Below are positions 17,135 to 36,093 of a DNA stretch of 64,000 nt, piece by piece; positions within the stretch are counted from its first letter, which is position 1, and every line of letters begins with the position of its first letter. The notes beneath the pieces were generated by a model. The model had not been told where the DNA came from, searched no databases, and saw only the letters and a program-made list of their open reading frames with translations. Where the stretch lies: the NCBI RefSeq assembly GCF_053078305.1, contig NZ_CP166879.1. One strand, 5' to 3'. A program made the translations under genes and the position numbers.

Positions 17135-17203
17135 TTCAAAATTCGACGGATTAACGATATTTGTCTGATTAATAATCAGACCGGATTAATGTTGGTGTAT
17201 TTA

Positions 17204-17395
17204 TTACACCAGCATTAATTTTCCTGGGGATGTATCTTCCTGTTCATTTAAGGTCAACTGCCTGACGTTTCTCTCCGAATATTCCATTATATTAATGTTG
17301 ACTTGTTGACCAGCTTCGCCCCTGTATGCTGGCATCAACCCTCTTTTAGACTGAACACGCCACTCAGTTTCCTCCCTTTGCGACGCAGCCTGCAT
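17204..17395 (-). CDS. small hypothetical ORF (possible ykgL-like)
   Basis: 63-aa ORF only; position matches where a small gene lies between ykgO and ecpR in E. coli; no motif support. Confidence 0.2.
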   Translation of the reverse strand: MQAASQREETEWRVQSKRGLMPAYRGEAGQQVNINIMEYSERNVRQLTLNEQEDTSPGKLMLV

Positions 17396-18149
17396 TTACA
17401 CTCAAACTGTTAAGATGATAAATGTGGTAAATCTGTTGGTACTGACATAAAAACGTTTACGCCACAGGAACGGCCTGATCCACCGGTAACCCCGTCGCCG
17501 ACGTTCGAGTGCCAGTTAGAGTAACGCGCACAGATGACTGAATGCAGTGCCCTGGCAAAGAGGCCATCGTTCCGGTGACAACTGGCAGTCTTCGTTTAAC
17601 TTCACTTAATCTGGCTCTTAGGGGGCTTACCGGACAGATGACGTACTTACACCTGTTTAATTTTTCATCACTTATTGGGATGAACACCCATAACCATTTT
17701 GTGCGGCATGTTAATCCATTAAAACACCTTACTGATTGGCAAATCATCTTTAATTATGACTCATGATAGTTTTATATTCTATTTCTTATCATTTAGACTT
17801 GTTTTTTTACTAGTCCATTACACAACACATTAAGACTATTCCTAACACCTCAGGGCAAAGTTCCTGGCTAATATAAAATGCAAGTAAGAATTGAACGTTA
17901 TATTGCCAATAACCTTATGAAACTGAATGTCTTTTTCTTCTTATCAAAAAAGCAATATTTTCATTTTTTGTAAATATTGACTTAACCATGGAATTCATTT
18001 TCTGTTCACATATTGACACTCATCAGGAAAAAAACATAAATTTAAACCTAATCGAAATAATTAAAACTTAATCTCGTTTAACCTATATTGATATGTGCTA
18101 CGTATCTTATTTACTTCCGATTTACTAAAGAAACTGAATGTACCTGTAA

Positions 18150-18761
<612 letters not shown>

Positions 18762-18835
18762 ACTCCAGGCAAGTTAGTTTTAAAAAATGACTCACCGGGA
18801 CTCCATGTCCTCAATTCAACTCGGGAAGAAAAGCA

Positions 18836-19423
18836 ATGAAAAAAAAGGTTCTGGCAATAGCTCTGGTAACGGTGTTTACCGGTATAGGTGTGGCGCAGGC
18901 TGCTGACGTAACAGCTCAGGCTGTAGCGACCTGGTCAGCAACAGCCAAAAAAGACACCACCAGTAAGCTGGTTGTGACGCCACTCGGTAGCCTGGCGTTC
19001 CAGTATGCCGAAGGCATTAAAGGTTTTAACTCACAGAAAGGTCTATTTGACGTGGCTATCGAGGGTGACTCAACGGCTACCGCCTTTAAACTGACCTCAC
19101 GTCTTATCACCAACACCTTAACCCAGTTGGATACCTCAGGTTCTACACTGAATGTGGGCGTGGATTATAACGGCGCGGCAGTCGAAAAAACTGGCGATAC
19201 CGTGATGATCGATACCGCCAACGGCGTACTGGGCGGCAACCTTAGCCCGCTGGCAAACGGTTACAATGCCAGCAATCGTACCACCGCACAGGATGGTTTC
19301 ACTTTCTCCATCATCAGCGGCACCACCAATGGTACCACCGCAGTAACCGATTACAGCACTCTACCGGAGGGCATCTGGAGCGGCGACGTTAGCGTACAGT
19401 TCGACGCGACCTGGACCAGTTAA
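18836..19423 (+). CDS. ecpA: EcpA (MatB), E. coli common pilus major subunit
   Basis: 195 aa; signal peptide [22 protein letters not shown], Thr/Ser-rich pilin. Confidence 0.9.
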
Positions 19424-19480
19424 TCTCTCTGATGTACCAGCAGGGGTAGCCCCCCTGCTTTATTCCTGGACGGAATTGTT

Positions 19481-20149
19481 ATGAAAAAGCACCTTCTGCT
19501 TCTCGCTCTGCTGTTATCCGGAATATCTCCGGCCCAGGCGCTGGATGTCGGCGATATATCATCGTTTATGAACAGTGACAGCAGCACGCTGAGCAAAACG
19601 ATCAAAAACAGTACCGACAGTGGTCGCCTCATCAATATCCGTCTCGAACGGCTCTCTTCACCGCTTGACGACGGGCAGGTTATCTCAATGGACAAGCCGG
19701 ACGAGTTGCTACTCACTCCCGCCAGCTTGCTGCTACCCGCCCAAGCCAGCGAAGTGATCCGCTTCTTCTATAAGGGACCAGCAGATGAAAAAGAGCGCTA
19801 CTACCGCATTGTCTGGTTTGATCAGGCCCTCAGTGATGCGCAGCGCGATAATGCCAACCGCAGCGCTGTGGCCACTGCTTCCGCCCGCATCGGCACCATT
19901 CTGGTCGTCGCCCCCCGCCAGGCAAACTACCACTTTCAGTACGCCAACGGCACCCTGACAAATACAGGAAATGCGACGCTGCGGATCCTCGCCTACGGCC
20001 CCTGCCTGAAAGCCGCCAATGGTAAAGAGTGTAAAGAGAATTACTACCTGATGCCGGGCAAGTCGCGTCGTTTTACCCGCGTGGACACGGCGGATAACAA
20101 AGGACGGGTTGCACTTTGGCAGGGTGATAAGTTCATTCCCGTGAAATAG
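19481..20149 (+). CDS. ecpB: EcpB, periplasmic pilus chaperone
   Basis: 222 aa with signal peptide; operon position. Confidence 0.85.
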
Positions 20150-20174
20150 ATAGCTGTGCAGATGGATAACGACA

Positions 20175-22700
20175 ATGCCTTTACGACGGTTCTCCCCAGG
20201 ACTGAAAGCCCAGTTTGCCTTCGGCATGGTCTTTTTGTTCGTTCAGCCCGATGCCAGCGCTGCTGACATAAGTGCGCAGCAAATAGGTGGGGTGATTATT
20301 CCGCAGGCCTTCAGTCAGGCGCTCCAGGACGGCATGAGCGTCCCGCTTTATATTCATCTCGCCGGTAGCCAGGGTCGCCAGGACGATCAGCGAATCGGCA
20401 GCGCTTTTATCTGGTTGGATGATGGACAGCTACGCATCCGGAAAATACAGCTGGAAGAGAGTGAAGATAACGCCAGTGTCAGCGAACAAACTCGACAGCA
20501 GCTGATGGCTCTGGCGAACGCCCCGTTCAATGAGGCCCTTACCATCCCCCTGACTGACAACGCGCAGCTGGATCTCAGCTTGCGCCAACTGCTGCTGCAG
20601 CTGGTGGTCAAGCGCGAAGCGCTGGGCACTGTACTACGCTCACGTAGCGAAGACATCGGGCAGTCCAGTGTTAACACCCTCAGCAGTAATCTGAGCTATA
20701 ACTTCGGCATCTATAACAACCAGTTGCGTAACGGCGGGAGCAACACATCCAGCTATCTGTCGCTGAATAACGTTACTGCACTGCGCGAACATCATGTGGT
20801 GCTCGACGGCTCGCTGTACGGAATCGGTAGCGGTCAACAGGACAGTGAATTATATAAAGCGATGTATGAACGCGATTTTGCCGGTCACCGATTTGCCGGT
20901 GGAATGCTCGACACCTGGAACTTGCAGTCCTTAGGGCCGATGACCGCCATTTCAGCAGGGAAGATTTACGGCCTTTCCTGGGGAAACCAGGCCAGCTCCA
21001 CCATCTTCGACAGCAGCCAGTCAGCCACGCCAGTGATCGCCTTTTTACCGGCGGCGGGTGAAGTACATCTCACCCGTGATGGGCGGCTACTAAGCGTTCA
21101 GAACTTCACTATGGGCAATCATGAAGTGGATACCCGGGGTCTACCGTACGGTATTTACGATGTGGAAGTTGAGGTGATCGTTAACGGTCGCGTGATCAGC
21201 AAACGCACCCAGCGGGTCAATAAGCTGTTTAGCCGGGGGCGCGGCGTTGGTGCACCACTGGCGTGGCAGGTATGGGGCGGTAGCTTTCATATGGATCGCT
21301 GGTCGGAAAACGGGAAAAAGACGCGACCAGCTAAGGAGAGCTGGCTAGCAGGTGCCTCGACCTCCGGCTCATTGAGTACGCTTAGCTGGGCGGCAACGGG
21401 ATATGGATACGATAATCAGGCGGTGGGTGAAACCCGTCTGACGCTGCCGCTTGGGGGAGCGATCAACGTTAACCTGCAAAATATGCTGGCCAGTGACAGC
21501 TCATGGAGCAACATCGCCAGCATCAGCGCCACTCTACCGGGAGGCTTTAGTTCGCTGTGGGTTAACCAGGAAAAAACCCGCATTGGCAATCAATTGCGAC
21601 GTAGCGATGCCGACAACCGTGCAATCGGCGGCACACTCAACCTGAACTCACTGTGGTCGAAGCTGGGCACATTCAGCATCAGCTACAATGATGACCGCCG
21701 TTACAACAGCCATTATTACACGGCAGATTACTATCAAAATGTCTACAGCGGTCCCTTTGGTTCGCTTGGCCTGCGGGCCGGTATTCAGCGCTATAACAAC
21801 GGCGACAGCAACGCCAATACAGGGAAATATATCGCTCTCGATCTCTCGCTACCACTGGGCAACTGGTTTAGCGCAGGGATGACTCATCAAAACGGCTACA
21901 CCATGGCAAACCTGTCAGCACGCAAGCAGTTTGATGAAGGGACCATTCGCACTGTTGGTGCCAATCTGTCACGAGCCATCTCCGGCGATACCGGTGATGA
22001 CAAAACTCTCAGTGGTGGGGCGTATGCACAGTTCGACGCTCGCTACGCCAGCGGAACGCTGAACGTCAATAGCGCGGCGGACGGCTACGTCAATACCAAT
22101 TTAACCGCCAATGGCAGCGTCGGCTGGCAGGGTAAAAACATTGCTGCCAGCGGGCGGACTGATGGCAACGCTGGGGTGATATTCAACACCGGGCTGGAGG
22201 ACGACGGTCAGATCAGCGCCAAAATCAACGGGCGGATTTTCCCGCTTAACGGCAAGCGTAACTATCTCCCGCTCTCTCCCTATGGAAGATATGAGGTGGA
22301 GTTACAGAACAGCAAAAACTCACTCGACAGTTACGATATCGTCAGCGGTCGCAAAAGTCATCTGACTCTCTATCCAGGCAATGTCGCTGTCATTGAGCCA
22401 GAGGTGAAGCAGATGGTTACCGTCTCCGGTCGTATCCGTGCGGAAGACGGCACACTGCTGGCTAACGCACGGATTAACAACCATATCGGCCGAACCCGAA
22501 CCGATGAAAACGGCGAGTTTGTCATGGACGTGGATAAGAAATACCCCACTATCGATTTTCGCTACAGTGGCAATAAAACCTGCGAAGTGGCACTGGAACT
22601 CAACCAGGCGCGCGGTGCCGTCTGGGTCGGTGATGTGGTCTGCAGCGGCCTCTCATCGTGGGCGGCGGTGACGCAGACAGGAGAAGAGAATGAGAGTTAA
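20175..22700 (+). CDS. ecpC: EcpC, outer membrane usher
   Basis: 841 aa, signal peptide, beta-rich; operon position. Confidence 0.9.
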
Positions 22701-24333
22701 CCTACTGATAGCGATGATAATCTTTGCGCTAATCTGGCCAGTAACTGCGCTCAGAGCGGCAGTGAGCAAAACAACCTGGGCGGATGCACCGGCACGCGAG
22801 TTTGTGTTTGTCGAAAACAACTCAGACGACAACTTTTTCGTCACTCCTGGCGGGGCGCTGGATCCGCGCCTGACCGGTGCCAACCGCTGGACCGGTTTAA
22901 AATACAATGGTTCAGGAACCATCTATCAGCAAAGCCTCGGCTACATTGATAACGGTTACAACACCGGCCTTTATACCAACTGGAAGTTTGATATGTGGCT
23001 GGAAAATTCACCAGTTTCATCTCCTTTAACTGGCTTGCGCTGCATCAACTGGTACGCTGGGTGTAATATGACCACCAGTCTTATCCTGCCGCAAACCACC
23101 GACACCAGTGGATTTTATGGCGCGACGGTGACCAGCGGCGGCGCGAAGTGGATGCACGGCATGTTGTCAGACGCGTTTTACCAGTATCTGCAACAAATGC
23201 CCGTCGGCAGCAGCTTTACAATGACCATCAATGCCTGCCAGACCTCTGTGAACTATGACGCCAGCAGCGGCGCACGCTGTAAGGATCAGGCCTCCGGCAA
23301 CTGGTATGTTCGCAACGTCACCCATACGAAAGCAGCAAACCTACGGTTGATAAATACCCACTCGCTGGCGGAAGTATTTATCAACAGCGACGGAGTACCG
23401 ACTCTGGGCGAAGGGAACGCCGACTGCCGGACGCAAACCATCGGCAGCCGTTCAGGATTAAGTTGTAAGATGGTTAACTATACCCTGCAAACAAACGGAC
23501 TCAGCAACACCTCAATCCATATATTCCCGGCGATCGCCAACTCGTCGTTAGCCTCGGCCATCGGGGCGTACGATATGCAGTTCAGTCTGAATGGCAGTTC
23601 ATGGAAACCGGTGAGCAATACTGCCTATTACTACACCTTCAACGAGATGAAGAGCGCAGACTCGATCTATGTTTTCTTCTCGAGCAACTTCTTTAAGCAG
23701 ATGGTGAACCAGGGAATCAGCGATATCAACACCAAAGATCTATTCAACTTTCGCTTTCAGAACACCACATCACCGGAGTCTGGCTGGTATGAATTTTCTA
23801 CCTCCAACACGCTGATTATCAAACCCCGTGATTTCAGCATCAGTATTATCTCCGATGAATATACTCAGACACCGTCGCGGGAGGGATATGTTGGCAGCGG
23901 CGAGTCGGCACTCGATTTCGGCTATATCGTAACCACCAGCGGTAAAACAGCTGCCGACGAAGTGCTGATCAAGGTGACCGGACCCGCGCAGGTGATTGGC
24001 GGGCGCTCCTATTGTGTCTTCAGCTCCGATGACGGTAAGGCGAAAGTACCGTTCCCGGCGACGCTTTCCTTTATTACCCGCAACGGAGCTACAAAAACCT
24101 ACGATGCCGGGTGCGATGATAGCTGGCGGGATATGACCGATGCGCTGTGGCTGACCACACCGTGGACTGATATCTCTGGCGAAGTGGGGCAGATGGATAA
24201 GACCACAGTCAAATTTTCGATTCCAATGGATAACGCCATTTCGCTGCGTACGGTAGATGATAACGGCTGGTTTGGCGAAGTCAGCGCTTCAGGAGAAATT
24301 CATGTTCAGGCGACGTGGCGTAACATTAACTAA
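22690..24333 (+). CDS. ecpD: EcpD, pilus tip adhesin subunit
   Basis: 547 aa with signal peptide; overlaps ecpC stop; operon position. Confidence 0.85.
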
Positions 24334-25012
24334 GGCCCTGCTGACAGCGGTCTGTATGCTGGCGGCACCTTTGACACAGGCGATTTCGGTCGGCAATCTG
24401 ACATTTTCGCTGCCGTCCGAGACTGACTTTGTCAGCAAACGTGTAGTGAATAACAACAAAAGCGCACGGATATACCGTATTGCCATCAGTGCTATTGATA
24501 GCCCGGGCAGCAGTGAATTGCGCACCCGACCGGTGGATGGTGAACTGCTTTTCGCCCCCCGCCAGCTGGCGTTGCAGGCTGGTGAGAGCGAGTATTTTAA
24601 ATTTTACTATCATGGTCCACAGGATAACCGCGAGCGCTACTACCGGGTCTCATTTCGCGAGGTCCCCACTCGTAACCTGACAAAACGCAGCCCTACCGGC
24701 GGTGAGGTCAGCACGGAGCCGGTGGTGGTGATGGATACCATTCTGGTAGTACGACCACGTCAGGTTCAGTTTAAATGGTCCTTCGACAAGGTGACAGGAA
24801 CGGTAAGTAACACCGGCAACACATGGTTTAAGCTACTGATTAAGCCAGGATGTGATTCGACCGAAGAGGAAGGCGATGCCTGGTATCTACGTCCGGGAGA
24901 CGTGGTTCATCAGCCTGAGTTACGTCAGCCGGGGAATCATTATCTGGTCTATAACGACAAATTCATTAAGATTAGCGATTCCTGTCCGGCTAAGCCCCCT
25001 TCGGCGGACTGA
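24302..25012 (+). CDS. ecpE: EcpE, second pilus chaperone
   Basis: ORF 24257..25012; start assigned to [27 protein letters not shown] signal peptide; overlaps ecpD 3' end. Confidence 0.8.
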
Positions 25013-25324
25013 TACTTATCCATCGGTCGAGGGAAGAATTCCACCTCAGAGACTCAAAAAACGTTTAAATGATGTGGAAGCGATCGTCAATGTCACCTGT
25101 AACGATGGGCTTTCTCATATGCACACCATAGTGTTCAGGAGACACAGAAAGGTATCAGGCTGCCTGCTAACGAGTGGTTTATTCACGAAATAGTACGTAA
25201 AATCGGTAACGGCTGGAAATCATTCAATACTCACACTATCGAAAGTACACCAGCCAACCGCGGTACGTTCTTACATACGATGTACCGCTGTTCTCTTTAC
25301 GATTTATAGCTGTACTGGTGAATT

Positions 25325-25654
25325 ATGAGCAATCTGAATCCATGCATGACGTGTGGTGCCTGTTGTGCATTTTTCCGCGTCTCTTTTTACTGGGCCGAAG
25401 CCGACGATGCTGGCGGTACCATTCCCGCCAGGCTCACTGAACAAATATCCCCTTTTCACCGATGCATGAGCGGTACCAATCAGAAAAACCCCCGATGTAT
25501 TGCCCTTGCAGGAACCCCAGGCAAAAATGCCTGCTGCACGATATATAAAAATCGATCGTCCACGTGCAGAGAATTCGCCATGTCTGGTGAGAACGGAGAA
25601 GTCAATGAGGCTTGCAATCGTGCAAGGGCTAAATACGGGCTGACACCGTTATAA
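25325..25654 (+). CDS. ykgJ: YkgJ, Cys-rich zinc/iron-chelating-domain protein (UPF0153)
   Basis: 109 aa; CMTCGACC ... [17 protein letters not shown] ... STCREF Cys clusters. Confidence 0.8.
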
Positions 25655-25677
25655 ATATACAATAATTAATTGCACTG

Positions 25678-25709
25678 CCCCGCCAGCGATAATAGCGGGG
25701 CTTCGTTTT
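25678..25709 (+). terminator. intrinsic terminator after ykgJ
   Basis: hairpin ccccgc-cagcgataata-gcgggg followed by cttcgtttt. Confidence 0.5.
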
Positions 25710-25854
25710 CAGGGACAACAAAACCCGAAACTTCTTGTATTTGCCAGCAACAATGCCTCTCTTCTGTAGCGTTCTTCGGATCTACATCATCCTGAAGTAG
25801 CGCGATATACTCACTGACTATCTGAATCAGAATATAAAAAGCAATGTTTTTAAC

Positions 25855-25890
25855 CTATAAAAATGGCGCTGTATTTGCGCCATTTTTATC
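25855..25890. terminator. bidirectional intrinsic terminator (3' of yagU)
   Basis: hairpin ggcgctgtatttgcgcc flanked by A-run and T-run. Confidence 0.5.
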
Positions 25891-25900
25891 ATTCAATGCA

Positions 25901-26515
25901 TTATCTGTTTGAGCCTAAGGGGATCTCAGGGTCTGGCTCATGAGTAATTCTGTTTCGTAAATCTCTGCGAATAATTTCAATGGACCAGAACCAGACTAAA
26001 TGTCCAAAAATTTCAGAAACATTCTCATACCACGGGAGATCAAAAAGAGGTGGTGTCAGTCCCATGAGAGGGAATGAAATCATATGAACAAAAAGTTGGG
26101 CTAAAGCACCTGCCAGTAAGCCCTGCCAGAGTTTAATTTTTGGAAATACTTCAGCGACCACACAATAACCGACAGCAAACACTATCGAAAAGATAATGTG
26201 CGTAACACCAACCCAGTTAAAGATATGCCCGGCAAAGGTATAAACAGCCGCATTGGGATCTGTCAGCCCCAGCCAGTCTCGAAGAAAAATATACGGAGGA
26301 TTGAGAAAATTACGCGAGCAATCAATTTGCCCAGCAGCCCTGATTAATGATTCCGGGCCACACGCTGCATTAAACATATCCACCGGGCTACGTGGAGGCA
26401 ATGGAACTTCAGCCCCCCACTTCACAAATGCGGAAACAACGCCAGCAATCAGCCCAATGAATGCAGCAAGACCATAACGTCTGCGGTTCGGTGGAGTTTG
26501 TTCAAATATATTCAT
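25901..26515 (-). CDS. yagU: YagU, inner membrane protein (DUF1440)
   Basis: 204 aa; three to four hydrophobic helices; conserved position next to pao operon. Confidence 0.85.
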
Positions 26516-26932
26516 ATCTACCCTGCTTGTACCATTATGTTATACACCTCTTTAGGAGTATTCATAAAACAAGGCGAATGTAAAGAACTGTATTGTTTTG
26601 TATAACAAGATGGTTGTCTAATCGCCAAAGAATATAAGCACCATCATTTCTCCCTATTTTTATATTAGAAGTGACATAGATTTGCAGGGTGATGCAGAGC
26701 TGACAATCACAGGTTTCCTTATCGGTTTTTGCATCGTACAACTCAAGCAATAAACCAGCTCCCATCATCATCAACATCCCGGCGAACATGAATTTATTAG
26801 CCGGGCTCATAGCTGCATTCGCGTTTTAAGAATAATCCTCCTGCTGTCGCCGACTATGCTTAACGTTTAAAAAAGCATCAGCACTCTCGCAACGCACTCT
26901 TATTTTCCCCTTTAGAATACCGGAGGCCTGGT

Positions 26933-27622
26933 ATGAGCAACCAAGGCGAATACCCCGAAGATAATCGGGTTGGGAAGCACGAGCCGCACGATTTTAGTTT
27001 GACCCGTCGCGATCTGATTAAAGTGAGCGCCGCAACGGCGGCGACCGCCGTGGTTTATCCTCATTCTACGCTTGCGGCAAGCGTTCCGGCAGCTACACCC
27101 GCGCCAGAGATAATGCCCCTGACACTTAAGGTGAACGGCAAAACCGAGCAGCTTGAGGTGGATACCCGAACCACGCTACTGGACGCTTTGCGTGAAAATC
27201 TGCATTTGATCGGTACCAAGAAAGGTTGCGATCACGGACAGTGCGGAGCCTGTACCGTGCTGGTCAATGGTCGCAGGCTTAATGCCTGCCTGACGCTGGC
27301 AGTCATGCATCAGGGGGCCGAGATCACCACCATTGAAGGCCTGGGTTCACCAGATAATCTTCACCCCATGCAGGCGGCCTTTATCAAGCATGATGGCTTC
27401 CAGTGCGGCTACTGCACCTCCGGGCAAATTTGCTCATCAGTAGCGGTGCTAAAAGAGATTCAGGATGGCATTCCCAGTCACGTCACGGTCGATTTGGTTT
27501 CCGCTCCAGAAACAACTGCCGATGAGATCCGTGAACGTATGAGCGGCAACATCTGTCGCTGTGGTGCATACGCTAACATCCTTGCCGCCATTGAAGACGC
27601 TGCGGGGGAGATAAAATCATGA
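26933..27622 (+). CDS. paoA: PaoA, periplasmic aldehyde oxidoreductase 2Fe-2S subunit (Tat signal)
   Basis: 229 aa; twin-arginine signal ([17 protein letters not shown]); two [2Fe-2S] Cys motifs ([10 protein letters not shown]; CGYCTSGQ ... CRCGAY). Confidence 0.9.
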
Positions 27623-28575
27623 AGGCGTTTACCTATGAACGAGTGAACACCCCCGCCGAGGCGGCACTTAGCGCTCAGCGCGTACCCGGCGCAAAATTTA
27701 TCGCGGGCGGGACCAATCTGCTGGACCTGATGAAGCTGGAAATTGAAACGCCCACCCACCTTATCGATGTGAACGGCCTCGGGCTCGATAAGATTGAAGT
27801 GACCGACGCGGGTGGGCTGCGCATCGGCGCACTGGTACGGAACACCGACCTGGCGGCTCACGAGCGCGTGCGTCGTGATTACGCGGTACTCTCCCGCGCC
27901 CTGCTCGCTGGCGCGTCTGGTCAGTTACGCAATCAGGCAACCACCGCAGGTAATCTGCTCCAGCGCACGCGCTGCCCCTATTTTTACGACACCAATCAGC
28001 CCTGCAATAAGCGCCTGCCCGGGAGCGGCTGCGCGGCGCTTGAAGGCTTTAGCCGTCAGCACGCGGTGGTAGGCGTAAGCGAAGCCTGCATTGCCACCCA
28101 TCCGAGCGATATGGCGGTCGCAATGCGGTTGCTGGATGCGGTGGTGGAAACCATCACGCCGGAGGGAAAGACTCGCAGTATCACACTGGCTGATTTTTAT
28201 CACCCACCGGGGAAAACGCCGCACATTGAAACCGCCCTGCTTCCCGGTGAGCTTATCGTTGCGGTGACGTTACCTCCGCCGCTCGGCGGAAAACATATCT
28301 ACCGTAAGGTGCGCGATCGCGCCTCCTACGCCTTTGCCCTGGTATCGGTCGCAGCGATTATTCAGCCTGACAGCAGCGGGCGCGTCGCGCTGGGTGGAGT
28401 AGCACATAAGCCCTGGCGCATTGAGGCTGCGGATGCTCAGCTATCCCAGGGGGCACAGGCCGTGTATGACGCGCTGTTCGCCAGCGCCCATCCCACCGCT
28501 GAAAACACCTTTAAACTCCTGTTGGCGAAGCGAACGCTTGCCTCCGTACTGGCTGAAGCGAGGGCACAAGCATGA
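27619..28575 (+). CDS. paoB: PaoB, FAD-binding subunit of aldehyde oxidoreductase
   Basis: 318 aa; CO-dehydrogenase-flavoprotein-like ([13 protein letters not shown]); translationally coupled to paoA and paoC. Confidence 0.9.
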
Positions 28576-30770
28576 AATTTGATAAACCCGCAGGGGAAAA
28601 CCCGATCGATCAGCTGAAGGTTGTCGGTCGTCCCCATGACCGCATCGACGGACCGCTGAAAACTACCGGCACGGCACGCTACGCCTACGAATGGTTTGAA
28701 GAAGCTCCCAACGCCGCCTATGGCTATATCGTCGGTTCCGCCATTGCCAAAGGACGCCTCACCGCCCTTGATACGGACGCCGCGCAAAAAGCGCCGGGCG
28801 TACTGGCTGTCATTACCGCCAGTAACGCCGGGGCACTCGGCAAAGGCGACAAAAACACCGCCAGGCTGTTAGGCGGCCCCACTATTGAGCACTATCATCA
28901 GGCCATTGCGCTGGTAGTGGCCGAGACCTTCGAACAGGCGCGAGCGGCGGCCTCGCTGGTGCAGGCGCACTATCGCCGTAATAAAGGAGCTTACTCCCTG
29001 GCGGACGAAAAACAGGCCGTCAATCAGCCGCCGGAAGGCACGCCCGACAAAAACGTCGGTGACTTTGACGGGGCTTTCTCCTCCGCTGCGGTGAAGATTG
29101 ATGCTACCTACACGACCCCGGACCAGAGCCATATGGCGATGGAGCCGCATGCCTCGATGGCCGTCTGGGATGGAAATAAGCTTACTCTCTGGACCTCAAA
29201 TCAGATGATTGACTGGTGCCGCACCGATCTGGCAAAAACGCTGAAAGTGCCCGTGGAGAATGTGCGTATTATCTCCCCGTATATCGGCGGAGGGTTTGGC
29301 GGCAAGCTGTTCCTGAGAAGCGATGCGCTGCTGGCAGCCCTCGCCGCCCGAGCGGTGAAACGTCCGGTTAAAGTGATGCTCCCCCGCCCCACTATTCCCA
29401 ATAACACCACGCACCGCCCCGCAACCCATCAGCATCTGCGTATCGGTGCCGACCAGAGCGGGAAAATCACCGCTATCTCACATGAAAGCTGGTCCGGAAA
29501 CCTGCCCGGCGGTACGCCGGAAACGGCGGTACAGCAAAGCGAATTACTCTACGCCGGGGCAAACCGTCATACCGGCCTGCGGCTCGCCACGCTTGATTTG
29601 CCGGAAGGGAACGCCATGCGTGCGCCCGGCGAAGCCCCCGGTCTGATGGCGCTCGAAATCGCGATCGACGAACTGGCGGAAAAAGCGGGCATCGATCCCG
29701 TCGAGTTTCGCATCCTGAATGACACTCAGGTTGACCCCGCCGACCCGACGCGCCGCTTCTCTCGCCGTCAGCTTATCGAGTGCTTGCGCACCGGAGCGGA
29801 TAAATTTGGCTGGAAGCAGCGCAACGCCACACCCGGACAGGTGCGCGACGGGGAGTGGCTAGTCGGCCACGGCGTCGCGGCGGGCTTTCGCAATAATCTG
29901 CTGGAAAAATCGGGGGCTCGGGTTCACCTCGAACCAAACGGCACCGTTACCGTGGAAACGGACATGACCGACATTGGCACCGGCAGCTACACCATTCTGG
30001 CCCAGACGGCAGCGGAAATGCTTGGCGTACCGCTGGAGCAGGTTGCGGTTCACCTCGGCGATTCCAGTTTCCCGGTTTCTGCGGGTTCTGGTGGACAATG
30101 GGGCGCGAATACCTCCACCTCCGGCGTTTACGCCGCCTGTGTGAAGCTTCGCGAAATGATTGCCTCGGCAGTCGGGTTTGATCCTGAGCAGTCGCAGTTT
30201 GCCGACGGCAAGATTACCAACGGTACCCGAAGCGCCATGCTACATGAGGCCACCGCAGGCGGCAGACTGACAGCGGAAGAGAGCATTGAATTCGGAACAC
30301 TGAGCAAGGAGTACCAGCAGTCGACCTTTGCCGGGCATTTTGTGGAGGTCGGCGTGCATAGCGCGACGGGAGAAGTTCGGGTCCGGCGTATGCTCGCTGT
30401 GTGTGCTGCAGGACGCATCCTGAATCCGAAAACTGCACGCAGCCAGGTCATTGGCGCAATGACTATGGGCATGGGCGCGGCACTGATGGAGGAGCTGGCG
30501 GTGGATGACCGTTTGGGCTACTTCGTTAATCACGATATGGCGGGGTATGAGGTGCCGGTCCATGCGGATATCCCAAAACAGGAGGTGATTTTCCTGGATG
30601 ATACCGACCCCATATCCTCCCCGATGAAGGCCAAAGGTGTCGGTGAGCTGGGCCTGTGCGGCGTGAGCGCGGCTATCGCCAACGCGGTGTATAACGCCAC
30701 CGGTATTCGGGTACGCGATTATCCCATCACTCTGGATAAGCTGCTCGATAAGCTGCCGGATGTGGTTTAA
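28572..30770 (+). CDS. paoC: PaoC, molybdopterin-binding catalytic subunit of aldehyde oxidoreductase
   Basis: 732 aa xanthine-dehydrogenase-family Mo-co subunit. Confidence 0.9.
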
Positions 30771-30779
30771 GGAGGAACA

Positions 30780-31736
30780 ATGTCATACCCGCTTTTTGAT
30801 AAAGACGAACACTGGCATAAGCCAGAGCAGGCGTTTCTCACCGATGACCACCGGACCATTCTGCGCTTCGCCGTAGAGGCGCTAATGTCCGGTAAAGGAG
30901 CGGTGCTGGTGACGCTGGTGGAGATACGCGGCGGCGCGGCGCGCCCGCTCGGGGCGCAGATGGTGGTGCGCGAAGATGGTCGTTACTGCGGTTTTGTCTC
31001 TGGCGGCTGCGTGGAGGCCGCTGCCGCTTTTGAAGCGCTGGAGATGATGGGCTCAGGCCGCGATCGCGAAATTCGCTATGGCGAAGGTTCGCCGTGGTTT
31101 GACATCGTTCTGCCCTGCGGCGGTGGGATCACGCTGACGCTCCATAAACTACGCTCGGCACAGCCTCTGCTCGCCGTGCTGAACCGCCTGGAACAGAGAA
31201 AACCGGCGGGGCTGCGCTACGATCCGCAAGCACAATCGCTGGTGTGTCTGCCCACGCAAACCCGGACGGGCTGGAATCTCAATGGCTTTGAGGTGGGGTT
31301 CAGGCCATGCGTCAGGCTGATGATTTACGGACGTTCTCTTGAGGCGCAGGCAACCGCGAGTCTTGCAGCAGCCACAGGCTATGACAGCCATATCTTCGAT
31401 CTTTTTCCGGCCTCAGCCAGCGCTCAGATCGATACCGATACGGCGGTCATTTTGCTGTGCCATGATCTCAACCGAGAGCTGCCAGTGTTGCAGGCCGCGC
31501 GAGAGGCAAAACCCTTTTATCTCGGCGCATTGGGCAGCTATCGAACCCACACGTTACGTCTGCAAAAGCTCCACGAGCTGGGATGGTCCAGGGAGGAGAC
31601 AGCGCAAATCCGGGCACCCGTCGGGATATTTCCCAAAGCCCGGGATGCGCATACTCTGGCACTCTCCGTGCTGGCAGAAGTCGCCTCTGTACGTCTCCAT
31701 CAGGAGGAGGATTCATACCTGCCCCCGTCGTCCTGA
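30780..31736 (+). CDS. paoD: PaoD, XdhC-like molybdenum cofactor insertion chaperone
   Basis: 318 aa XdhC/CoxI family. Confidence 0.85.
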   Translation: MSYPLFDKDEHWHKPEQAFLTDDHRTILRFAVEALMSGKGAVLVTLVEIRGGAARPLGAQMVVREDGRYCGFVSGGCVEAAAAFEALEMMGSGRDREIRYGEGSPWFDIVLPCGGGITLTLHKLRSAQPLLAVLNRLEQRKPAGLRYDPQAQSLVCLPTQTRTGWNLNGFEVGFRPCVRLMIYGRSLEAQATASLAAATGYDSHIFDLFPASASAQIDTDTAVILLCHDLNRELPVLQAAREAKPFYLGALGSYRTHTLRLQKLHELGWSREETAQIRAPVGIFPKARDAHTLALSVLAEVASVRLHQEEDSYLPPSS

Positions 31737-31914
31737 TCCTTGCGGCCGGGCGTGGGAAGCGCTTTCTCACCTCCGGGGGAAATACCATAAATTAAGAGAA
31801 AAATCTGCAGTAGCCGTTTTAGAAAATCACCTAAATCGTTTAAAAGAGCGCCCTACCCATAGTGGGTGCTCATCGCCTTGTGTAACTTATTCAGCAACGC
31901 GCGCCCTCGCCGGA

Positions 31915-33108
31915 CTAAAGCGCACCGGCCTTCTGGCGTGCGGTAACAAAGGTCAGTACGCCCGCGCAAAGGAGCAGCACACTACTCATGGCAAACGTAC
32001 TCTGCCAGCCAAGGCGGTCAAACACGATGCCTCCTGCCGTTGATCCAAGGGCGATTGAGAGCTGAATCACCGCGACCATGAGCCCGCCTCCGGCTTCGGC
32101 GTTGTCAGGCAACGTACGCGCAATCCATGTCCACCATCCGGTTGGCGCGGCGGTGGCCAGCATGCCCCAGAGTCCTAACAGCAGCGAGACCGTCCAGACG
32201 TGATGCCCGGTAAGCATCAGACCGATGGCAATGACGGCCATCAGTCCGGGTATGGCCATCAGCGTGGGGTAGAATTTTCTGTTGAGAAATGTCGAAACAA
32301 CCAGCGTGCCAATAAAACCGGCCACGCCGATAATCAGCAAAATCAACGACAAGCCTAAGGAATTAACCCGTGTCACCGACTCCAGAAACGGGCGCACATA
32401 GGTGAATAGCGCAAACTGCCCCATGAAAAACAGGCCACAAGCTATCATGCCGACCACAACCATGCGGCGGCTAAATAAGCGGAATACCGCGCCACATGAC
32501 GTGTGGCTTTTATTCGCATCCATGCTGGGCAGACTAATGCACTGCCAGATAAAGGCGACAACCGCCATGGGCACCAGGCACAAGAAAGCGCCTCGCCATC
32601 CGACCGTAGCCCCCAGATAGCTTCCCAGCGGCGCGGCCACGACCGTCGCCAGCGCATTACCGGCGTTGAAAATCGCCAGCGCACGCGTGACCTGATGCTG
32701 CGGCACCAGACGAATCGCCGTTGCCGCTGACATCGACCAGAATCCGCCAATGGCCACACCAATCATCGCACGACCGACCATATACATCAGATAACTGGTA
32801 GCCAGCGCAATAATAAGCCCCGATACGGCCATCAGAACCGTCATCCCCAGCAGCAGGAACTTACGATTCATCTTTCCAGCTAGCGTTGAAAGCGTCAGGC
32901 TGGTCAGAACCGCCAGCGCGCCGGAGATAGCAATCCCCTGCCCTGCCAGCCCCTCCGTCACGCCTAAATCGCGGGTAATCGGCGTGAGCAGGCTGACGGG
33001 CATAAATTCAGAAGCAATCAGCACAAACACGCACAGGGTCATGGCAAAAATACCGCCCCAGTATGCGCGCTGATGATGAGGTGATAGTGTTTGGCTTAGT
33101 GTCGACAT
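31915..33108 (-). CDS. MFS transporter (12-TM, sugar-efflux/drug-efflux type)
   Basis: 397 aa; ~12 hydrophobic helices, MFS loop motif GKMNRKFLLLG. Confidence 0.8.
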   Translation of the reverse strand: MSTLSQTLSPHHQRAYWGGIFAMTLCVFVLIASEFMPVSLLTPITRDLGVTEGLAGQGIAISGALAVLTSLTLSTLAGKMNRKFLLLGMTVLMAVSGLIIALATSYLMYMVGRAMIGVAIGGFWSMSAATAIRLVPQHQVTRALAIFNAGNALATVVAAPLGSYLGATVGWRGAFLCLVPMAVVAFIWQCISLPSMDANKSHTSCGAVFRLFSRRMVVVGMIACGLFFMGQFALFTYVRPFLESVTRVNSLGLSLILLIIGVAGFIGTLVVSTFLNRKFYPTLMAIPGLMAVIAIGLMLTGHHVWTVSLLLGLWGMLATAAPTGWWTWIARTLPDNAEAGGGLMVAVIQLSIALGSTAGGIVFDRLGWQSTFAMSSVLLLCAGVLTFVTARQKAGAL

Positions 33109-33183
33109 AGTGAAATTTCACAAAGATCAGGATAAAAGCCACCAGCCTATGGTCGGTGGCTTTGCATCAATTCAGGAGAGGTT

Positions 33184-34320
33184 TTATTTCAGTTTGGTCT
33201 GGAAAAATTGTTCGAACTTCGCGAAAGGTATTTTTCCGGCCACGTTATCGTACAGGTCCACGTGATTTGCCCCTGGTACCACCACCAACTCTTTGTCTTT
33301 ACTGCCAACCGCCTTGTAAGCATCTTCAGCAAAATAGCGTGAATGTGCTTTCTCACCGGTCACAATCAGCGTCGGAATGGTTATTTCACTGGCGTAGCTC
33401 AACAGCGGCATATTCATAAATGACAGCGGCATCGTTGCCGTCCACGCCCCGGTAGAGTTAACGGAACGTTCGTGGAAGCCGCGCGGCATGCGATAGTAGT
33501 CAAAGAACTCTTTCAGTACCGGATGAGGATTTGCCGGCAGCGTTTCTGGCAGAATGCGCTCGCCCGCACTGACCTTGCCGTTGCTGTCGACATTAATATC
33601 ATGACCACCGTGAGCGAACGTTCCGCTCTGCGCATCCTTCCAGCGCTGTTCATTCAGATATTGCAGAACAGCACGACGGTCGGCGGTAGAATAACGGTCT
33701 TCGCCATCCCCCACACCATGGCCCATCGCCCGGCTCATGTCATACATCACGCTGGTAGCAACCGCTTTAACGCGGGTATCCATCGCCACGTCGTTCAGCG
33801 CCATGCCACCCCAGCCACAAATACCGAGCAGCCCGATACGGTTGCGATCTACCTCTTTTTGCAGCCCTAAGAAATCCACCGCCGCGCTGAAATCTTCAGT
33901 GTTGATATCCGGTGAGGCGACGTTCCGCGGATAGCCGCCGCTTTCCCCGGTGTAAGAAGGATCGAACGCCAGGGTAACAAACCCTCGTTCCGCCAGCGTC
34001 TGCGCATACAAGCCGCTGGATTGCTCTTTCACCGCGCCAAATGGCCCACTGACCGCAATCGCCGCCAGCTTGCGATCGCCACGGTCTTTAGGCAGGTAAA
34101 GATCGCCCACTAAGGTGATGCCATATCGGTTCGGGAACGATACTTTACGGTGATCGACTTTCTGGCTCTCGGCGAACGTTTTATCCCATTTATCGGTCAT
34201 GGACACAGGGGCATTAGGATTGGTTGAATCAGCATAACTCATTGTCGTGACTCCACTTAATGATGCGAAAAGCAGCATGGCCGGCATCGCGGTTTTTAGC
34301 GTTCGGGTGAAGGCTTTCAT
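33184..34320 (-). CDS. secreted alpha/beta hydrolase, dienelactone-hydrolase-like (paralogue of the 13485..14405 product)
   Basis: ORF 33184..34341; signal peptide; nucleophile elbow LGICGWGG with Cys; C-terminal NHVDLYD. Confidence 0.7.
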   Translation of the reverse strand: MKAFTRTLKTAMPAMLLFASLSGVTTMSYADSTNPNAPVSMTDKWDKTFAESQKVDHRKVSFPNRYGITLVGDLYLPKDRGDRKLAAIAVSGPFGAVKEQSSGLYAQTLAERGFVTLAFDPSYTGESGGYPRNVASPDINTEDFSAAVDFLGLQKEVDRNRIGLLGICGWGGMALNDVAMDTRVKAVATSVMYDMSRAMGHGVGDGEDRYSTADRRAVLQYLNEQRWKDAQSGTFAHGGHDINVDSNGKVSAGERILPETLPANPHPVLKEFFDYYRMPRGFHERSVNSTGAWTATMPLSFMNMPLLSYASEITIPTLIVTGEKAHSRYFAEDAYKAVGSKDKELVVVPGANHVDLYDNVAGKIPFAKFEQFFQTKLK

Positions 34321-34506
34321 AAAAATCCCCATAAAAAACAACAGAGAGATACAGGTTTCCGACGGACAACGCTGCGGTGCTTTACTTTGATGGGGTCATT
34401 ATAGTGAGCAGAATTAGTGCTGATTAGGGGGCGATTAATGCTAAGATTAATACCATATTGTTATAAATTAATGCGAAGATTGCCGGCATGAAGGGGGGAT
34501 GTTTCA

Positions 34507-35391
34507 ATGGCGAAAAGGGAGAACTACAACGAGCTGTACCTGTTTATGCAGGTGGTGCGAGAAGGCAGCTTTACCGCAGCGGCTCAGCGGCTGGGTCTTG
34601 CTCAGTCAGGAGTCAGCCGTTCTGTTCGCGAGCTTGAAGAAAGGCTGGGTGTCCAGCTGCTAGTGCGCACCACGCGTAAACTGTCGCTGACACAAGCAGG
34701 CGAGCAGCTCTACCAGAAGACGGCATCTGGATTTGAAATGTTAGATCTTGGGCTTGCCACACTGGCGCACTATCGAGAGACGCCCTCCGGCACGGTGCGT
34801 ATCAATGCCAGCCAGCACGCGATTGATAAATGCCTGCTGCCAAAGCTGGCGGTATTTAAACAGCGATATCCTGATATCCGGCTTGAACTGATAAATGAGA
34901 GCCGGTTCGTCGATATCATCGAGGAAAGATTCGATGCAGGTGTCCGCCTGGGGCCTGAAGTCGGCCAGGGTATGGTCGCGGTACGCATCACGCCCGATAT
35001 GGAGATGGCAATTGTGGGGACTCCGGAACATTTTCGTCGCTATGGTTTTCCGCAAACTCCGGCGGATTTAAAGGCGCATCCCTGTATCGCCTATCAGTTT
35101 GCCGACGGCAGCGTATACCAGTGGGAACTCAATCAGGATGATAAAAAAATCACTCATCAACCCGAAGGACAATGGGCCCTATCCGACAGCTATATGGAAG
35201 CAGAAGCCGCCCGGCTGGGCCTCGGATTGGCCTATGTTCCTGTTGAACTGGTCGCGGATGATTTAGAACACGGTAAGCTTATCAGGGTGTTGCAGCGTTA
35301 CAGCCTGCGAATGGAGGGATTGTTTCTCTATTACCCTCATCGCAACGTCTCCCCCGCTCTGCGGATGGTCATTGATACATTGAAAATCTGA
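34507..35391 (+). CDS. LysR-family transcriptional regulator
   Basis: 294 aa; HTH FTAAAQRLGLAQSGVSRSVRELEERL; divergent from hydrolase. Confidence 0.8.
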   Translation: MAKRENYNELYLFMQVVREGSFTAAAQRLGLAQSGVSRSVRELEERLGVQLLVRTTRKLSLTQAGEQLYQKTASGFEMLDLGLATLAHYRETPSGTVRINASQHAIDKCLLPKLAVFKQRYPDIRLELINESRFVDIIEERFDAGVRLGPEVGQGMVAVRITPDMEMAIVGTPEHFRRYGFPQTPADLKAHPCIAYQFADGSVYQWELNQDDKKITHQPEGQWALSDSYMEAEAARLGLGLAYVPVELVADDLEHGKLIRVLQRYSLRMEGLFLYYPHRNVSPALRMVIDTLKI

Positions 35392-35629
35392 ACGTTAACA
35401 ACGACCGACTCTTCACGGTGCAATATTGTGTCAGGTAGTCACTCTGCGTTCAATTCCAGGGTCTGCTTTGAGCGAGAAAGAGCAGACTTATCTGTACAAG
35501 GGGACTATCCAGCAATGGAGATCATCCAAAAGAAAAAACCACCTGGCTCCCCTCGACAACCTTAATCCGGGCATTTAGCCTCAATCAACATTTTCATATC
35601 TGTCAGGTTACTTCATTATGAAAACCGAT

Positions 35630-35880
35630 CAATATCGTTGTTTTTGTTGCAACAGTAGAATACGCGTATTTATCCCTCCATTTCTATTAATAACGGCAAT
35701 AAACTGTTCATTTCACTGATATTTAAAATATGCATCCTTTTCAAGCTGTTCAGCGGCGTAAGAAAACGTATTAAATATGAATTCGACGATTTAACCATTT
35801 CTGTCTGATTGGTAATCATCTGTGATTAATGCTGGTCTATTGATTACGCCAGCATTAACCGCTTAGGGATGTATTCTTCC
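35630..35880 (+). repeat. degenerate paralogous copy of the ykgR and ykgO-3'/downstream segments (ykgM and most of ykgO absent)
   Basis: 35633..35745 aligns with 16300..16415 (ykgR region, frame disrupted); 35745..35880 aligns with 17105..17240 (ykgO 3' end and downstream) at roughly 75% identity by eye. Confidence 0.6.
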
Positions 35881-36093
35881 TGATCATATACAGCCCTCGA
35901 AAAAGAGAGAAAATAAAACTGTGTCCAATATTACTCTACCACTCCAGACCGAAGCATCGGTAGAATTAGCAGAACGACTGGTACAATAGATTGGGATAGC
36001 GTCATTTGTCAGGTATTCCATTGCCTGACAAATGACAATTTTGAGTCAATAGACGTGCTTCTTGATCATGTCTTAAAAATTATACCATGAGCC

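What the first reader, a model, noticed from the sequence alone, without database searches (positions are those of the whole stretch)
35630..35880. Second, degenerate copy of the ykgR and ykgO-flank sequences about 19 kb from the intact ykgR-ykgM-ykgO locus
The segments at 16300..16415 and 17105..17240 reappear joined at 35633..35880 with ykgM and most of ykgO missing. The ykgR-like frame is disrupted and no Zur box is seen. This points to an ancient segmental duplication followed by deletion, or to an insertion of ykgM-ykgO into one copy.
Basis: seen in the sequence. Interest (0 to 1): 0.4.

Follow-up and report, generated by a model that had tools for sequence, protein, structure and literature searches.

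The report
Decayed ykgR-ykgO-ykgL relic near thrW
The second "copy" is a real but dead remnant of the ykgR-ykgM-ykgO-ykgL locus, already flagged in RefSeq as a ykgR pseudogene; with the intact locus it forms direct repeats around a 19-kb gene block that some Escherichia lineages lack.

Summary
Window 35622-35738 matches 16299-16415 (91.5% of 117 bp). Window 35738-35890 matches 17098-17250 (about 76%). The two pieces abut in copy 2, and the 682 bp between them in copy 1 are missing.

Copy 2 contains:
- ykgR codons 12-33, with an in-frame TGA directly upstream
- the last 11 codons of ykgO
- a decayed ykgO terminator
- a frameshifted tail of ykgL on the minus strand

This shows that ykgM-ykgO were deleted from copy 2, not inserted into copy 1. 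NCBI's PGAP pipeline already annotates the ykgR part as a pseudogene. About 17% of complete E. coli genomes carry copy 2, always with the same junction.

The two copies are direct repeats 19,323 bp apart. They bracket ykgMO, ykgL, ecpRABCDE, ykgJ, yagU, paoABCD and an MFS/hydrolase/LysR module. In two cryptic-clade lineages and 3 of 5426 E. coli genomes this block is absent. There, one intact ykgR is fused to the copy-2-type downstream sequence.

I favour a model in which copy 2 is the truncated survivor of such a single-copy allele. An older tandem duplication followed by deletions remains a serious rival.

This is an ordinary genomic relic of low interest.

The parts
35622..35738 (+). R1': copy-2 homologue of ykgR codons 12-33, the stop codon and 48 nt of 3' sequence. 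35622-35690 is the part PGAP annotates as a ykgR pseudogene 'missing N-terminus'.
   Evidence: 91.5% identity over 117 bp to 16299-16415. NF041474 match at 44.6 bits. PGAP annotation in ET350 and others.
35619..35621 (+). In-frame TGA directly upstream of the ykgR remnant. Homology to copy 1 ends here; this is the left junction.
   Evidence: Sequence read; alignments.
35738..35890 (+). R2': homologue of the ykgO 3' end, the ykgO-ykgL intergenic hairpins and the ykgL 3' end.
   Evidence: 75-76% identity to 17098-17250. 73-76% identity to the equivalent sequence in the E. albertii- and E. marmotae-labelled loci.
35739..35774 (+). Remnant of the last 11 codons and stop of ykgO (FQAVQRRKKTY*).
   Evidence: Read and aligned.
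35809..35890 (-). Remnant of the last ~27 codons of ykgL. It is frameshifted and the stop codon is lost.
   Evidence: Translations, compared with ET350 YkgL.
35822..35862 (+). Surviving second hairpin of the ykgO terminator region. The first hairpin is degraded and the U tract is lost.
   Evidence: Folds: copy 1 is -30 kcal/mol (z -6.0) and ends in UUUUCCU; copy 2 is -25 kcal/mol (z -3.8) and ends in AACCGCUUA.
35392..35621 (.). Left flank of copy 2, downstream of the LysR gene. It has no homology to the copy-1 region.
   Evidence: No match in the Citrobacter or Klebsiella LysR loci either.
35891..36093 (.). Right flank of copy 2, running up to the 90-aa hypothetical gene. The single-copy alleles share it. 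It contains a 15-bp-stem hairpin at 36001-36036.
16266..16367 (+). Intact ykgR (33 aa) of copy 1.
   Evidence: NF041474 match at 78 bits. PGAP annotation.
16299..16415 (+). R1: the copy-1 arm of the direct repeat.
16416..17097 (+). 682 bp present only in copy 1: the hairpin after ykgR, the Zur box (16702-16719), ykgM (16731-16994) and ykgO codons 1-35.
   Evidence: This segment is present in 4743 of 5426 complete E. coli genomes.
17098..17250 (+). R2: the ykgO 3' end, two hairpins and the ykgL 3' end of copy 1.
17251..35391 (.). The rest of the 19.3-kb block between the repeats: ykgL 5' part, ecpRABCDE, ykgJ, yagU, paoABCD, an MFS transporter, an alpha/beta hydrolase and LysR.
   Evidence: ET350 annotation mapped onto the window at 98.9% identity.

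Best explanation
What it is. Copy 2 is a non-functional relic, not a working gene or regulatory site. It descends from a ykgR-ykgM-ykgO-ykgL locus that lost 682 bp: the hairpin after ykgR, the Zur box, ykgM and most of ykgO. What remains is the 3' two-thirds of ykgR fused to the last 11 codons of ykgO, a decayed terminator and the tail of ykgL.

Structure. Together with the intact locus it forms a pair of direct repeats 19,323 bp apart. They enclose ykgMO, ykgL, ecpRABCDE, ykgJ, yagU, paoABCD and an MFS/hydrolase/LysR module.

Favoured history (inferred). First, an allele arose in which an intact ykgR, already stripped of ykgMO, lay directly next to the hypothetical-SDR-LysR-thrW genes. This single-copy allele survives in two cryptic-clade lineages and in rare E. 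coli. Later, not long before the E. coli radiation, the full-length locus plus the 19-kb block became joined upstream of that allele. One junction was illegitimate and fell at ykgR codon 12. That would fit homology-facilitated illegitimate recombination after DNA exchange between Escherichia lineages. The junction cut off the promoter and first 11 codons of the resident ykgR and left copy 2.

Possible present-day effect. The only effect I can suggest is passive. A 117-bp repeat with a 35-bp identical core could support rare recombinational loss of the block.
For: Shown:
- The homology and its significance.
- The ykgO and ykgL tails inside copy 2.
- All copy-2 alleles, and all single-copy alleles, share one ykgMO-deletion junction. 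Some keep 9 nt of the copy-1 hairpin arm.
- PGAP calls the ykgR part a pseudogene.
- Copy 2 is present in 912 of 5426 complete E. coli genomes, always between the LysR gene and the hypothetical gene.
- Single-copy alleles combine the copy-1 promoter, left flank and intact 33-aa ykgR with the copy-2-type R2' and right flank. They occur in cryptic-clade contigs L014-17 and L032-34, in the E. coli genomes 6EVA, wlxctx60 and GF4-3, and in contig L022.
- ykgR-ykgM-ykgO is contiguous in the E. albertii- and E. marmotae-labelled loci, so the copy-1 arrangement is ancestral.

For the favoured direction:
- At R1 positions 9 and 33, the derived states C and A are shared by E. coli copy 2 and the E. coli-like single-copy alleles. 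Copy 1 keeps the outgroup states.
- The single-copy R1 is copy-2-like at its 5' end and copy-1-like at its 3' end. A simple R1 x R1' crossover would give the opposite pattern.
- Only 2-3 changes are fixed in all copy-2 alleles, while those alleles differ from one another by 2-8 of 117 positions. R1' therefore became neutral only shortly before E. coli diversified.
- R2' is 24-27% from every R2, and R1 (8.5%) differs from R2 (24%) with Fisher p = 0.001. This fits R1' having been under selection inside a working ykgR for most of that time.
Against: - R1 is short. The argument rests on about six informative sites, and gene conversion or patchy mismatch repair between the repeats could produce the same mosaic.
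- The promoter and 5' end of ykgR in the E. coli-like single-copy strains are almost identical to ordinary E. coli copy 1. If that allele is old, its left part must have been homogenised by recombination.
- I could not see what lies next to thrW in E. marmotae or E. albertii. I also found no genome in which the two copy-2 flanks are contiguous without copy 2 (a 40-row sample).
- The species labels of the outgroup contigs come from protein names rather than from genome typing. One label (L022, 'E. fergusonii') is probably wrong for this region.
Confidence: 0.5

Rival explanations
1. Old tandem duplication, then deletions. An ancestor of E. coli and the cryptic clades duplicated about 19.3 kb in tandem, from ykgR codon 12 to 230 bp past the LysR gene. 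Most of the second copy was then deleted, from mid-ykgL to its end, and so were its 682 bp carrying ykgMO. That left copy 2. The single-copy alleles arose later, when recombination between R1 and R1' removed the block.
For: - The two copies are collinear direct repeats exactly one period (19,323 bp) apart.
- Copy 1 in E. coli shows divergence from E. marmotae, E. albertii and E. fergusonii that fits vertical descent (81-89%).
- The same R1-R2' junction occurs in E. coli and in the clades, so it predates their split.
- R1 has a 35-bp identical core, which is long enough for RecA-dependent recombination.
- The cryptic-clade R1 carries the ancestral, copy-1-like states at positions 9 and 33. That is compatible with a crossover product.
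Against: - It predicts equal neutral divergence of R1' and R2'. Observed values are 8.5% against 24% (p = 0.001).
- It predicts many fixed copy-2-specific changes in R1'. Only 2-3 are seen.
- E. coli-like single-copy alleles are copy-2-like at R1 positions 9-33 and copy-1-like at 45-95. Under this model that needs a crossover in the first 8 bp of homology, or multiple conversion events.
- It needs independent deletions in at least two lineages.
Confidence: 0.35
2. Copy 2 is functional. It might encode the 33-aa alternative-frame ORF at 35618-35719, or a truncated YkgR-like peptide. It might instead act as a terminator or small RNA for the neighbouring LysR gene or hypothetical gene.
For: - The alternative-frame ORF is open in all seven alleles examined.
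- One hairpin is retained with z = -3.8.
- The element has persisted in about 17% of complete E. coli genomes.
Against: - The ORF has no convincing Shine-Dalgarno sequence and no family match in NCBIfam.
- It shows several amino-acid replacements, and a lost stop codon, among alleles only ~5% apart.
- The ykgR frame has no start codon and is preceded by a stop.
- The retained hairpin has lost its U tract, and the terminator scan does not call it.
- There is no Rfam match at gathering threshold anywhere near it.
- Allele diversity of 2-8 per 117 bp equals or exceeds that of the flanks, as expected for neutral sequence.
Confidence: 0.04
3. ykgM-ykgO were inserted into one of two originally short copies.
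For: None beyond the bare presence/absence pattern.
Against: - Copy 2 holds the last 11 codons and stop of ykgO, and some alleles hold part of the hairpin arm that lies inside the 'insert'.
- ykgR-ykgM-ykgO is contiguous in the E. albertii- and E. marmotae-labelled loci.
Confidence: 0.01
4. The match is either chance similarity between AT-rich intergenic DNA, or a dispersed mobile repeat such as a MITE, REP or ERIC element.
For: Both regions are AT-rich.
Against: - Alignment score is 87 against a maximum of 16 in 300 shuffles, with E-values of 3e-43 and 4e-22.
- There are only 1-2 places per genome at the median and 4 at most.
- Plasmid hits are F-prime plasmids or misassigned chromosome.
- There is no Rfam family match.
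Confidence: 0.01

Closest known systems
RefSeq/PGAP pseudogene 'small membrane protein YkgR; incomplete; missing N-terminus' (for example NMD37_RS18545 in E. coli ET350)
   Same: It is the same feature. PGAP's coordinates map to window 35622-35690, and it is annotated at this site in every copy-2 genome I opened.
   Different: The annotation covers only the 69-bp ykgR fragment. It does not record the adjoining ykgO and ykgL remnants, the shared deletion junction, or the repeat relationship with the intact locus.
Intact ykgR-ykgM-ykgO-ykgL locus of E. coli (small membrane protein YkgR, followed by the Zur-repressed paralogues of ribosomal proteins L31 and L36)
   Same: Copy 2 is homologous to its two ends in the same order and orientation.
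   Different: Copy 2 lacks the ykgR promoter, start codon and first 11 codons, the Zur box, ykgM, ykgO codons 1-35 and the ykgL 5' two-thirds.
Single-copy 'ykgR without ykgMO' allele in cryptic Escherichia clades and in E. coli 6EVA, wlxctx60 and GF4-3
   Same: It has the same ykgMO-deletion junction, the same R2' and the same right flank (hypothetical gene, SDR, LysR, thrW). It also shares the derived R1 sites C9 and A33 with the E. coli-like alleles.
   Different: In that allele ykgR is intact (33 aa, with its promoter), and the 19.3-kb block with ecp and pao is absent.
Gene remnants next to thrW in E. coli K-12 (the ptwF tRNA fragment and the yagP LysR pseudogene beside prophage CP4-6). This comparison is from my own knowledge and was not tested here.
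   Same: Same chromosomal neighbourhood, and the same kind of debris left by rearrangements at a tRNA integration hotspot.
   Different: K-12 has no copy 2. Only the copy-1 matches are found in K-12 records (rows H26 and H31).
Homology-facilitated illegitimate recombination, and tandem duplication followed by deletion (general mechanisms)
   Same: Both produce a structure with one homologous and one illegitimate junction and a partial direct repeat.
   Different: Neither was observed here. They are inferred from the end product.

Membership tests
YkgR small membrane protein (NCBIfam NF041474 / Pfam PF28062) | Sequence match to the family model above the curated cut-off | tested here: met
   The 22-aa conceptual fragment scores 44.6 bits (cut-off 40) and covers model positions 14-33. 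Intact copy 1 scores 78.1 bits.
YkgR small membrane protein (NCBIfam NF041474 / Pfam PF28062) | Complete 33-codon ORF with a start codon and upstream ribosome-binding site | tested here: not met
   Homology begins at codon 12. An in-frame TGA lies at 35619-35621, and there is no start codon in frame. PGAP flags the feature as missing its N-terminus.
Zur-regulated ykgM-ykgO operon | Zur box upstream of the operon | tested here: not met
   The copy-1 box ATGTTATAACATAAC has no match with up to 3 mismatches between 35000 and 37000.
Zur-regulated ykgM-ykgO operon | ykgM and ykgO coding sequences | tested here: not met
   ykgM is absent, and only the last 11 codons of ykgO remain.
Segmental direct repeat (duplication relic) | Two or more collinear homologous segments in the same orientation, significantly similar and present at low copy number | tested here: met
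   R1 and R2 are in the same order and on the same strand, with a period of 19,323 bp. Median copy number is 1-2 per genome.
Dispersed mobile repeat (MITE, REP, ERIC or IS fragment) | Many copies per genome at unrelated sites | tested here: not met
   There are at most 4 places per genome, and the two main sites are fixed. There is no Rfam hit at either copy.
Intrinsic terminator | GC-rich stem followed by a U tract | tested here: not met
   Copy 2 keeps a stem but its tail reads AACCGCUUA, and the scan does not call it.

The most novel reading that the evidence does not exclude
The ancestor of E. coli had lost ykgM-ykgO and carried the single-copy allele. It then regained ykgM-ykgO in one step, together with the ECP pilus operon, ykgJ, yagU and the Pao aldehyde oxidoreductase, as a 19-kb block. 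The block was joined by one homologous and one illegitimate crossover, and copy 2 is the scar of that event. If so, several 'core' E. coli traits would be a single re-acquisition.
Probability: 0.25. Interest if true: 0.35.

Novelty: already known. Interest (0 to 1): 0.15.

Why it matters
It matters little for function, because copy 2 is dead DNA that RefSeq already flags as a pseudogene.

Its modest value is as a marker. It dates and delimits a rearrangement around the thrW hotspot, and it shows that a 19-kb block is bounded by direct repeats and is missing as a unit in some Escherichia lineages. That block holds the zinc-sparing ribosomal paralogues, the common pilus operon and the Pao oxidoreductase.

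It is also a small caution for annotation and read mapping. The ykgR, ykgO and ykgL probes cross-hit a second site in about one E. coli genome in six.

Tried and rejected
1. Scan of genome contigs with the 22-mer TATTAATAACGGCNATAAACTG. It returned a single chance hit in a Gastranaerophilales MAG and no Escherichia, although the 22-mer is present in the window and in the E. coli loci I aligned.

2. Tracing the neighbouring LysR gene into other genera. The LysR/hydrolase(/MFS) module sits at unrelated sites in Citrobacter and Klebsiella with no ykgR-like DNA nearby, so it says nothing about the origin of copy 2.

3. Paralogy of the flanks. LysR/hydrolase pairs lie near both copies but are only 35-42% identical at protein level and inverted relative to ykgR. 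They are not part of the same duplication. The BhsA-like and NmrA genes beside E. marmotae ykgR are unrelated to the hypothetical and SDR genes beside copy 2.

4. More divergent homologues of the hypothetical protein, used in the hope of finding E. marmotae or E. albertii thrW regions. They turned out to be frameshifted E. coli alleles.

5. A search for an E. coli genome with the two copy-2 flanks joined directly. None was found among the 40 rows sampled.

6. A search for an intact second ykgM-ykgO. No evidence was found, but secondary places could not be listed.

7. Plasmid copies. These are F-prime plasmids or misassigned chromosome.

8. The alternative-frame ORF and the terminator/RNA readings. 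Both were rejected as functional explanations.

9. The search for homologous proteins could not take YkgR, which is below its 40-aa minimum.

Full report
**The observation**

I read both regions and compared 8-kb stretches around each with BLASTN.
- Two collinear matches on the same strand stand far above everything else. Window 35622-35738 matches 16299-16415 at 91.5% over 117 ungapped bases (E 3e-43). Window 35738-35890 matches 17098-17250 at 75% over 158 columns (E 4e-22).
- A shuffle control gives a best local score of 87, against 9.7 +/- 1.1 (maximum 16) for 300 dinucleotide shuffles of copy 2.
- The two segments abut in copy 2. The 682 bp that separate them in copy 1 (16416-17097) are missing.
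- I call the segments R1 and R2 in the intact locus, and R1' and R2' in copy 2.

**Anatomy of copy 2**

Copy 1 holds the following:
- ykgR (16266-16367, 33 aa)
- a 9-bp-stem hairpin (16412-16455)
- the Zur box (16702-16719)
- ykgM and ykgO
- two hairpins, the second followed by a U tract
- the 3' end of ykgL on the opposite strand

Copy 2 begins at ykgR codon 12.
- The preceding in-frame triplet is TGA (35619-35621), and upstream sequence is unrelated.
- The conceptual fragment still matches the YkgR model NF041474 over positions 14-33 at 44.6 bits.

R2' opens with TTT CAA GCT GTT CAG CGG CGT AAG AAA ACG TAT TAA.
- This corresponds to the last 11 codons and stop of ykgO.
- It continues through a degraded first hairpin and a retained second hairpin that has lost its U tract.
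- It ends in a frameshifted homologue of the last ~27 codons of ykgL, with the stop codon lost.

No Zur-box-like site lies near copy 2. Both ends of copy 2 fall inside genes, and it contains a fragment of ykgO. It is therefore derived from a full locus by deletion. It is not a primitive short version into which ykgM-ykgO were later inserted.

**Annotation and distribution**

- In the E. coli genome closest to the window (ET350, 98.9% identical over 27 kb), PGAP annotates window 35622-35690 as 'small membrane protein YkgR, incomplete, missing N-terminus'. The same annotation appears in every other copy-2 genome I opened.
- The local gene order is paoD, MFS transporter(-), alpha/beta hydrolase(-), LysR(+), copy 2, a 90-aa hypothetical protein(-), SDR(-), LysR(+), thrW(-), proA.
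- Copy 2 is present in 912 of 5426 complete E. coli genomes, including O157:H7 and O55:H7. K-12 lacks it.
- Alleles differ by about 5%, but all share the same R1'/R2' junction. Some alleles (L004, 6EVA, the cryptic clades) keep 9 more nucleotides (CCTCTCCCTG-like) that match the first arm of the copy-1 hairpin. The window's allele has lost them between CTTTTC repeats.
- The deletion that removed ykgMO therefore happened once.

**The wider structure**

R1/R2 and R1'/R2' are direct repeats with a period of 19,323 bp. Between them lie ykgM, ykgO, ykgL, ecpRABCDE, ykgJ, yagU, paoABCD, the MFS transporter, the hydrolase and LysR.

I used the hypothetical protein next to copy 2 as a handle and found contigs in which this whole block is absent.
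- These include a lineage whose protein is named Escherichia sp. KTE114 (L014-17) and a related lineage (L032-34). They are 94% identical to each other and 89-90% identical to E. coli in this region.
- In these contigs an intact 33-aa ykgR has the copy-1 promoter and left flank (AKR genes and a 297-aa LysR). It runs straight into the copy-2-type R2' and then into the hypothetical, SDR, LysR and thrW genes.
- The same single-copy arrangement occurs in 3 of 5426 complete E. coli genomes: 6EVA, wlxctx60 and GF4-3. Each has only one ykgR-like place.
- It also occurs in contig L022, which is labelled E. fergusonii but is 95-97% identical to E. coli here.
- Five complete genomes carrying the YkgR variant that UniRef assigns to E. 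fergusonii are different again. There, ykgR and its hairpin are followed directly by an integrase fragment and thrW, with no R2'.
- Loci labelled E. albertii and E. marmotae have contiguous ykgR-ykgM-ykgO. E. marmotae also has the same left flank, and yagU lies 8 kb downstream. The copy-1 arrangement is therefore ancestral.

**Which way did it go?**

Any model needs three illegitimate events: the 682-bp deletion, the R2'|right-flank junction and the left-flank|R1' junction. Two histories remain.

Model 1. A tandem duplication of the 19.3-kb unit in an ancestor was trimmed by deletions. Single-copy alleles were then produced later by R1 x R1' recombination.

Model 2. A single-copy allele arose first from a copy-1-type locus by deletions. 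Copy 2 formed when the full locus and the block were joined upstream of it.

The evidence leans to Model 2.
- Outgroups show that T9, T27 and T33 (positions within R1) are ancestral. The derived C9 and A33 are shared by E. coli copy 2 and the E. coli-like single-copy alleles. G45 and C95 are confined to copy 2, and C27 is confined to E. coli copy 1.
- The single-copy R1 is thus copy-2-like at its 5' end and copy-1-like at its 3' end. A simple crossover that deletes the block would give the reverse.
- Only 2-3 changes are fixed in all copy-2 alleles, although the alleles differ from one another by 2-8 of 117 positions. R1' has therefore been evolving freely only since shortly before E. coli diversified.
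- R2' is 24-27% from R2 of E. coli, E. marmotae and E. albertii alike. R1 is significantly less diverged than R2 (8.5% against 24%, Fisher p = 0.001). This is expected if R1' sat in a working ykgR for most of its history.

Against Model 2:
- The informative sites are few.
- Gene conversion between the repeats could mimic the pattern.
- The 5' part of ykgR in the E. coli-like single-copy strains is nearly identical to ordinary copy 1.
- I could not inspect the thrW side of E. marmotae or E. albertii.

I put Model 2 at about 0.5 and Model 1 at about 0.35.

**Function**

Nothing supports a function for copy 2.
- The ykgR frame lacks a start codon.
- The 33-codon alternative-frame ORF (35618-35719) stays open in seven alleles. 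However, it has no convincing ribosome-binding site and no family match, and it shows several replacements and one lost stop.
- The retained hairpin is not terminator-like.
- Rfam finds nothing there.
- Allele diversity equals or exceeds that of the flanks.
- The one plausible consequence is passive. The 117-bp repeat has a 35-bp identical core and could support occasional loss of the block.

**Comparison and verdict**

The ykgR fragment is already annotated in RefSeq, so the feature itself is known. Three things are not recorded, as far as my literature searches show: the ykgO and ykgL remnants, the shared junction, and the repeat-bounded 19-kb block with its single-copy alleles. These are ordinary comparative-genomic detail around a tRNA integration hotspot.

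Its 'duplication then deletion' reading is partly supported, and its 'insertion of ykgM-ykgO' alternative is refuted. Interest is low.

Noticed in passing
window 37343-37388 and 37389-64000: Identity to E. coli ET350 stops at 37388, inside thrW, and ARAGORN finds no tRNA anywhere in 35000-64000. The window therefore seems to carry only a thrW fragment, followed by more than 26 kb of inserted DNA (an island or prophage at the thrW site). The intact tRNA copy would lie beyond the window.
   Followed up: partly
window 17169-17396 (minus strand): ykgL in the window has a 1-bp deletion relative to ET350 (GGATGTA-TCTTCC against GGATATATTCTTCC). The ORF becomes 63 aa with a different C-terminus, instead of the annotated 75-aa YkgL.
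   Followed up: partly
window 12402-14405 and 33184-35391: Divergent LysR / alpha-beta-hydrolase gene pairs lie near both ykgR copies. They are paralogous at 35-42% protein identity and inverted relative to ykgR. They are far more diverged than the DNA repeat and so are not part of the same event.
   Followed up: partly
window 16224-16248: A terminator-like hairpin (GCACTTACGAAGTGC followed by a T run) lies immediately upstream of the ykgR ribosome-binding site. It is conserved in the single-copy alleles and in other Escherichia species.
   Followed up: no
window 36001-36036: A perfect 15-bp-stem hairpin (-24.6 kcal/mol, z -6.4) followed by AATTTTGAGT lies between copy 2 and the 90-aa hypothetical gene. 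It is conserved in the single-copy alleles.
   Followed up: partly
window 25697-25895 and 51055-51258: Rfam matches above gathering score: IS009 RNA between ykgJ and yagU, and IS102 RNA in the region beyond thrW.
   Followed up: no
L035-L039 (five complete genomes of 4.54-4.72 Mb, YkgR variant V6I): In these genomes, probably E. fergusonii, ykgR and its hairpin are followed directly by an integrase fragment and thrW or a prophage. Everything from ykgM to the LysR next to thrW is missing at this locus, so ykgMO, ecp and pao are absent here.
   Followed up: partly
L027/L028 10499-18040: In the E. marmotae-labelled loci the stretch between ykgO and yagU holds a different ~8-kb block: a Sel1-like repeat protein, an esterase, a methyltransferase, a TetR regulator and an iron-type ABC transporter. 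It replaces ykgL, the ecp operon and ykgJ.
   Followed up: no
L024 (E. coli GF4-3) about 12273-12320: The R1/R2' junction carries a tandem expansion of a GCTGTTCAA-like unit. Together with the 9-bp indel seen among other alleles, this marks the junction as a slippage hotspot.
   Followed up: no
L022 (GCA_048109445.1): This contig is labelled Escherichia fergusonii. In this region it is 95-97% identical to E. coli and only ~89% identical to the genomes that carry the E. fergusonii-type YkgR. Either the label is wrong or the region was exchanged.
   Followed up: partly
Genome-contig collection: An exact 22-mer that is present in the window and in the E. coli loci I aligned was not found in any Escherichia record of the species-representative collection. 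Either the representative genomes differ at that site or the scan missed them.
   Followed up: no
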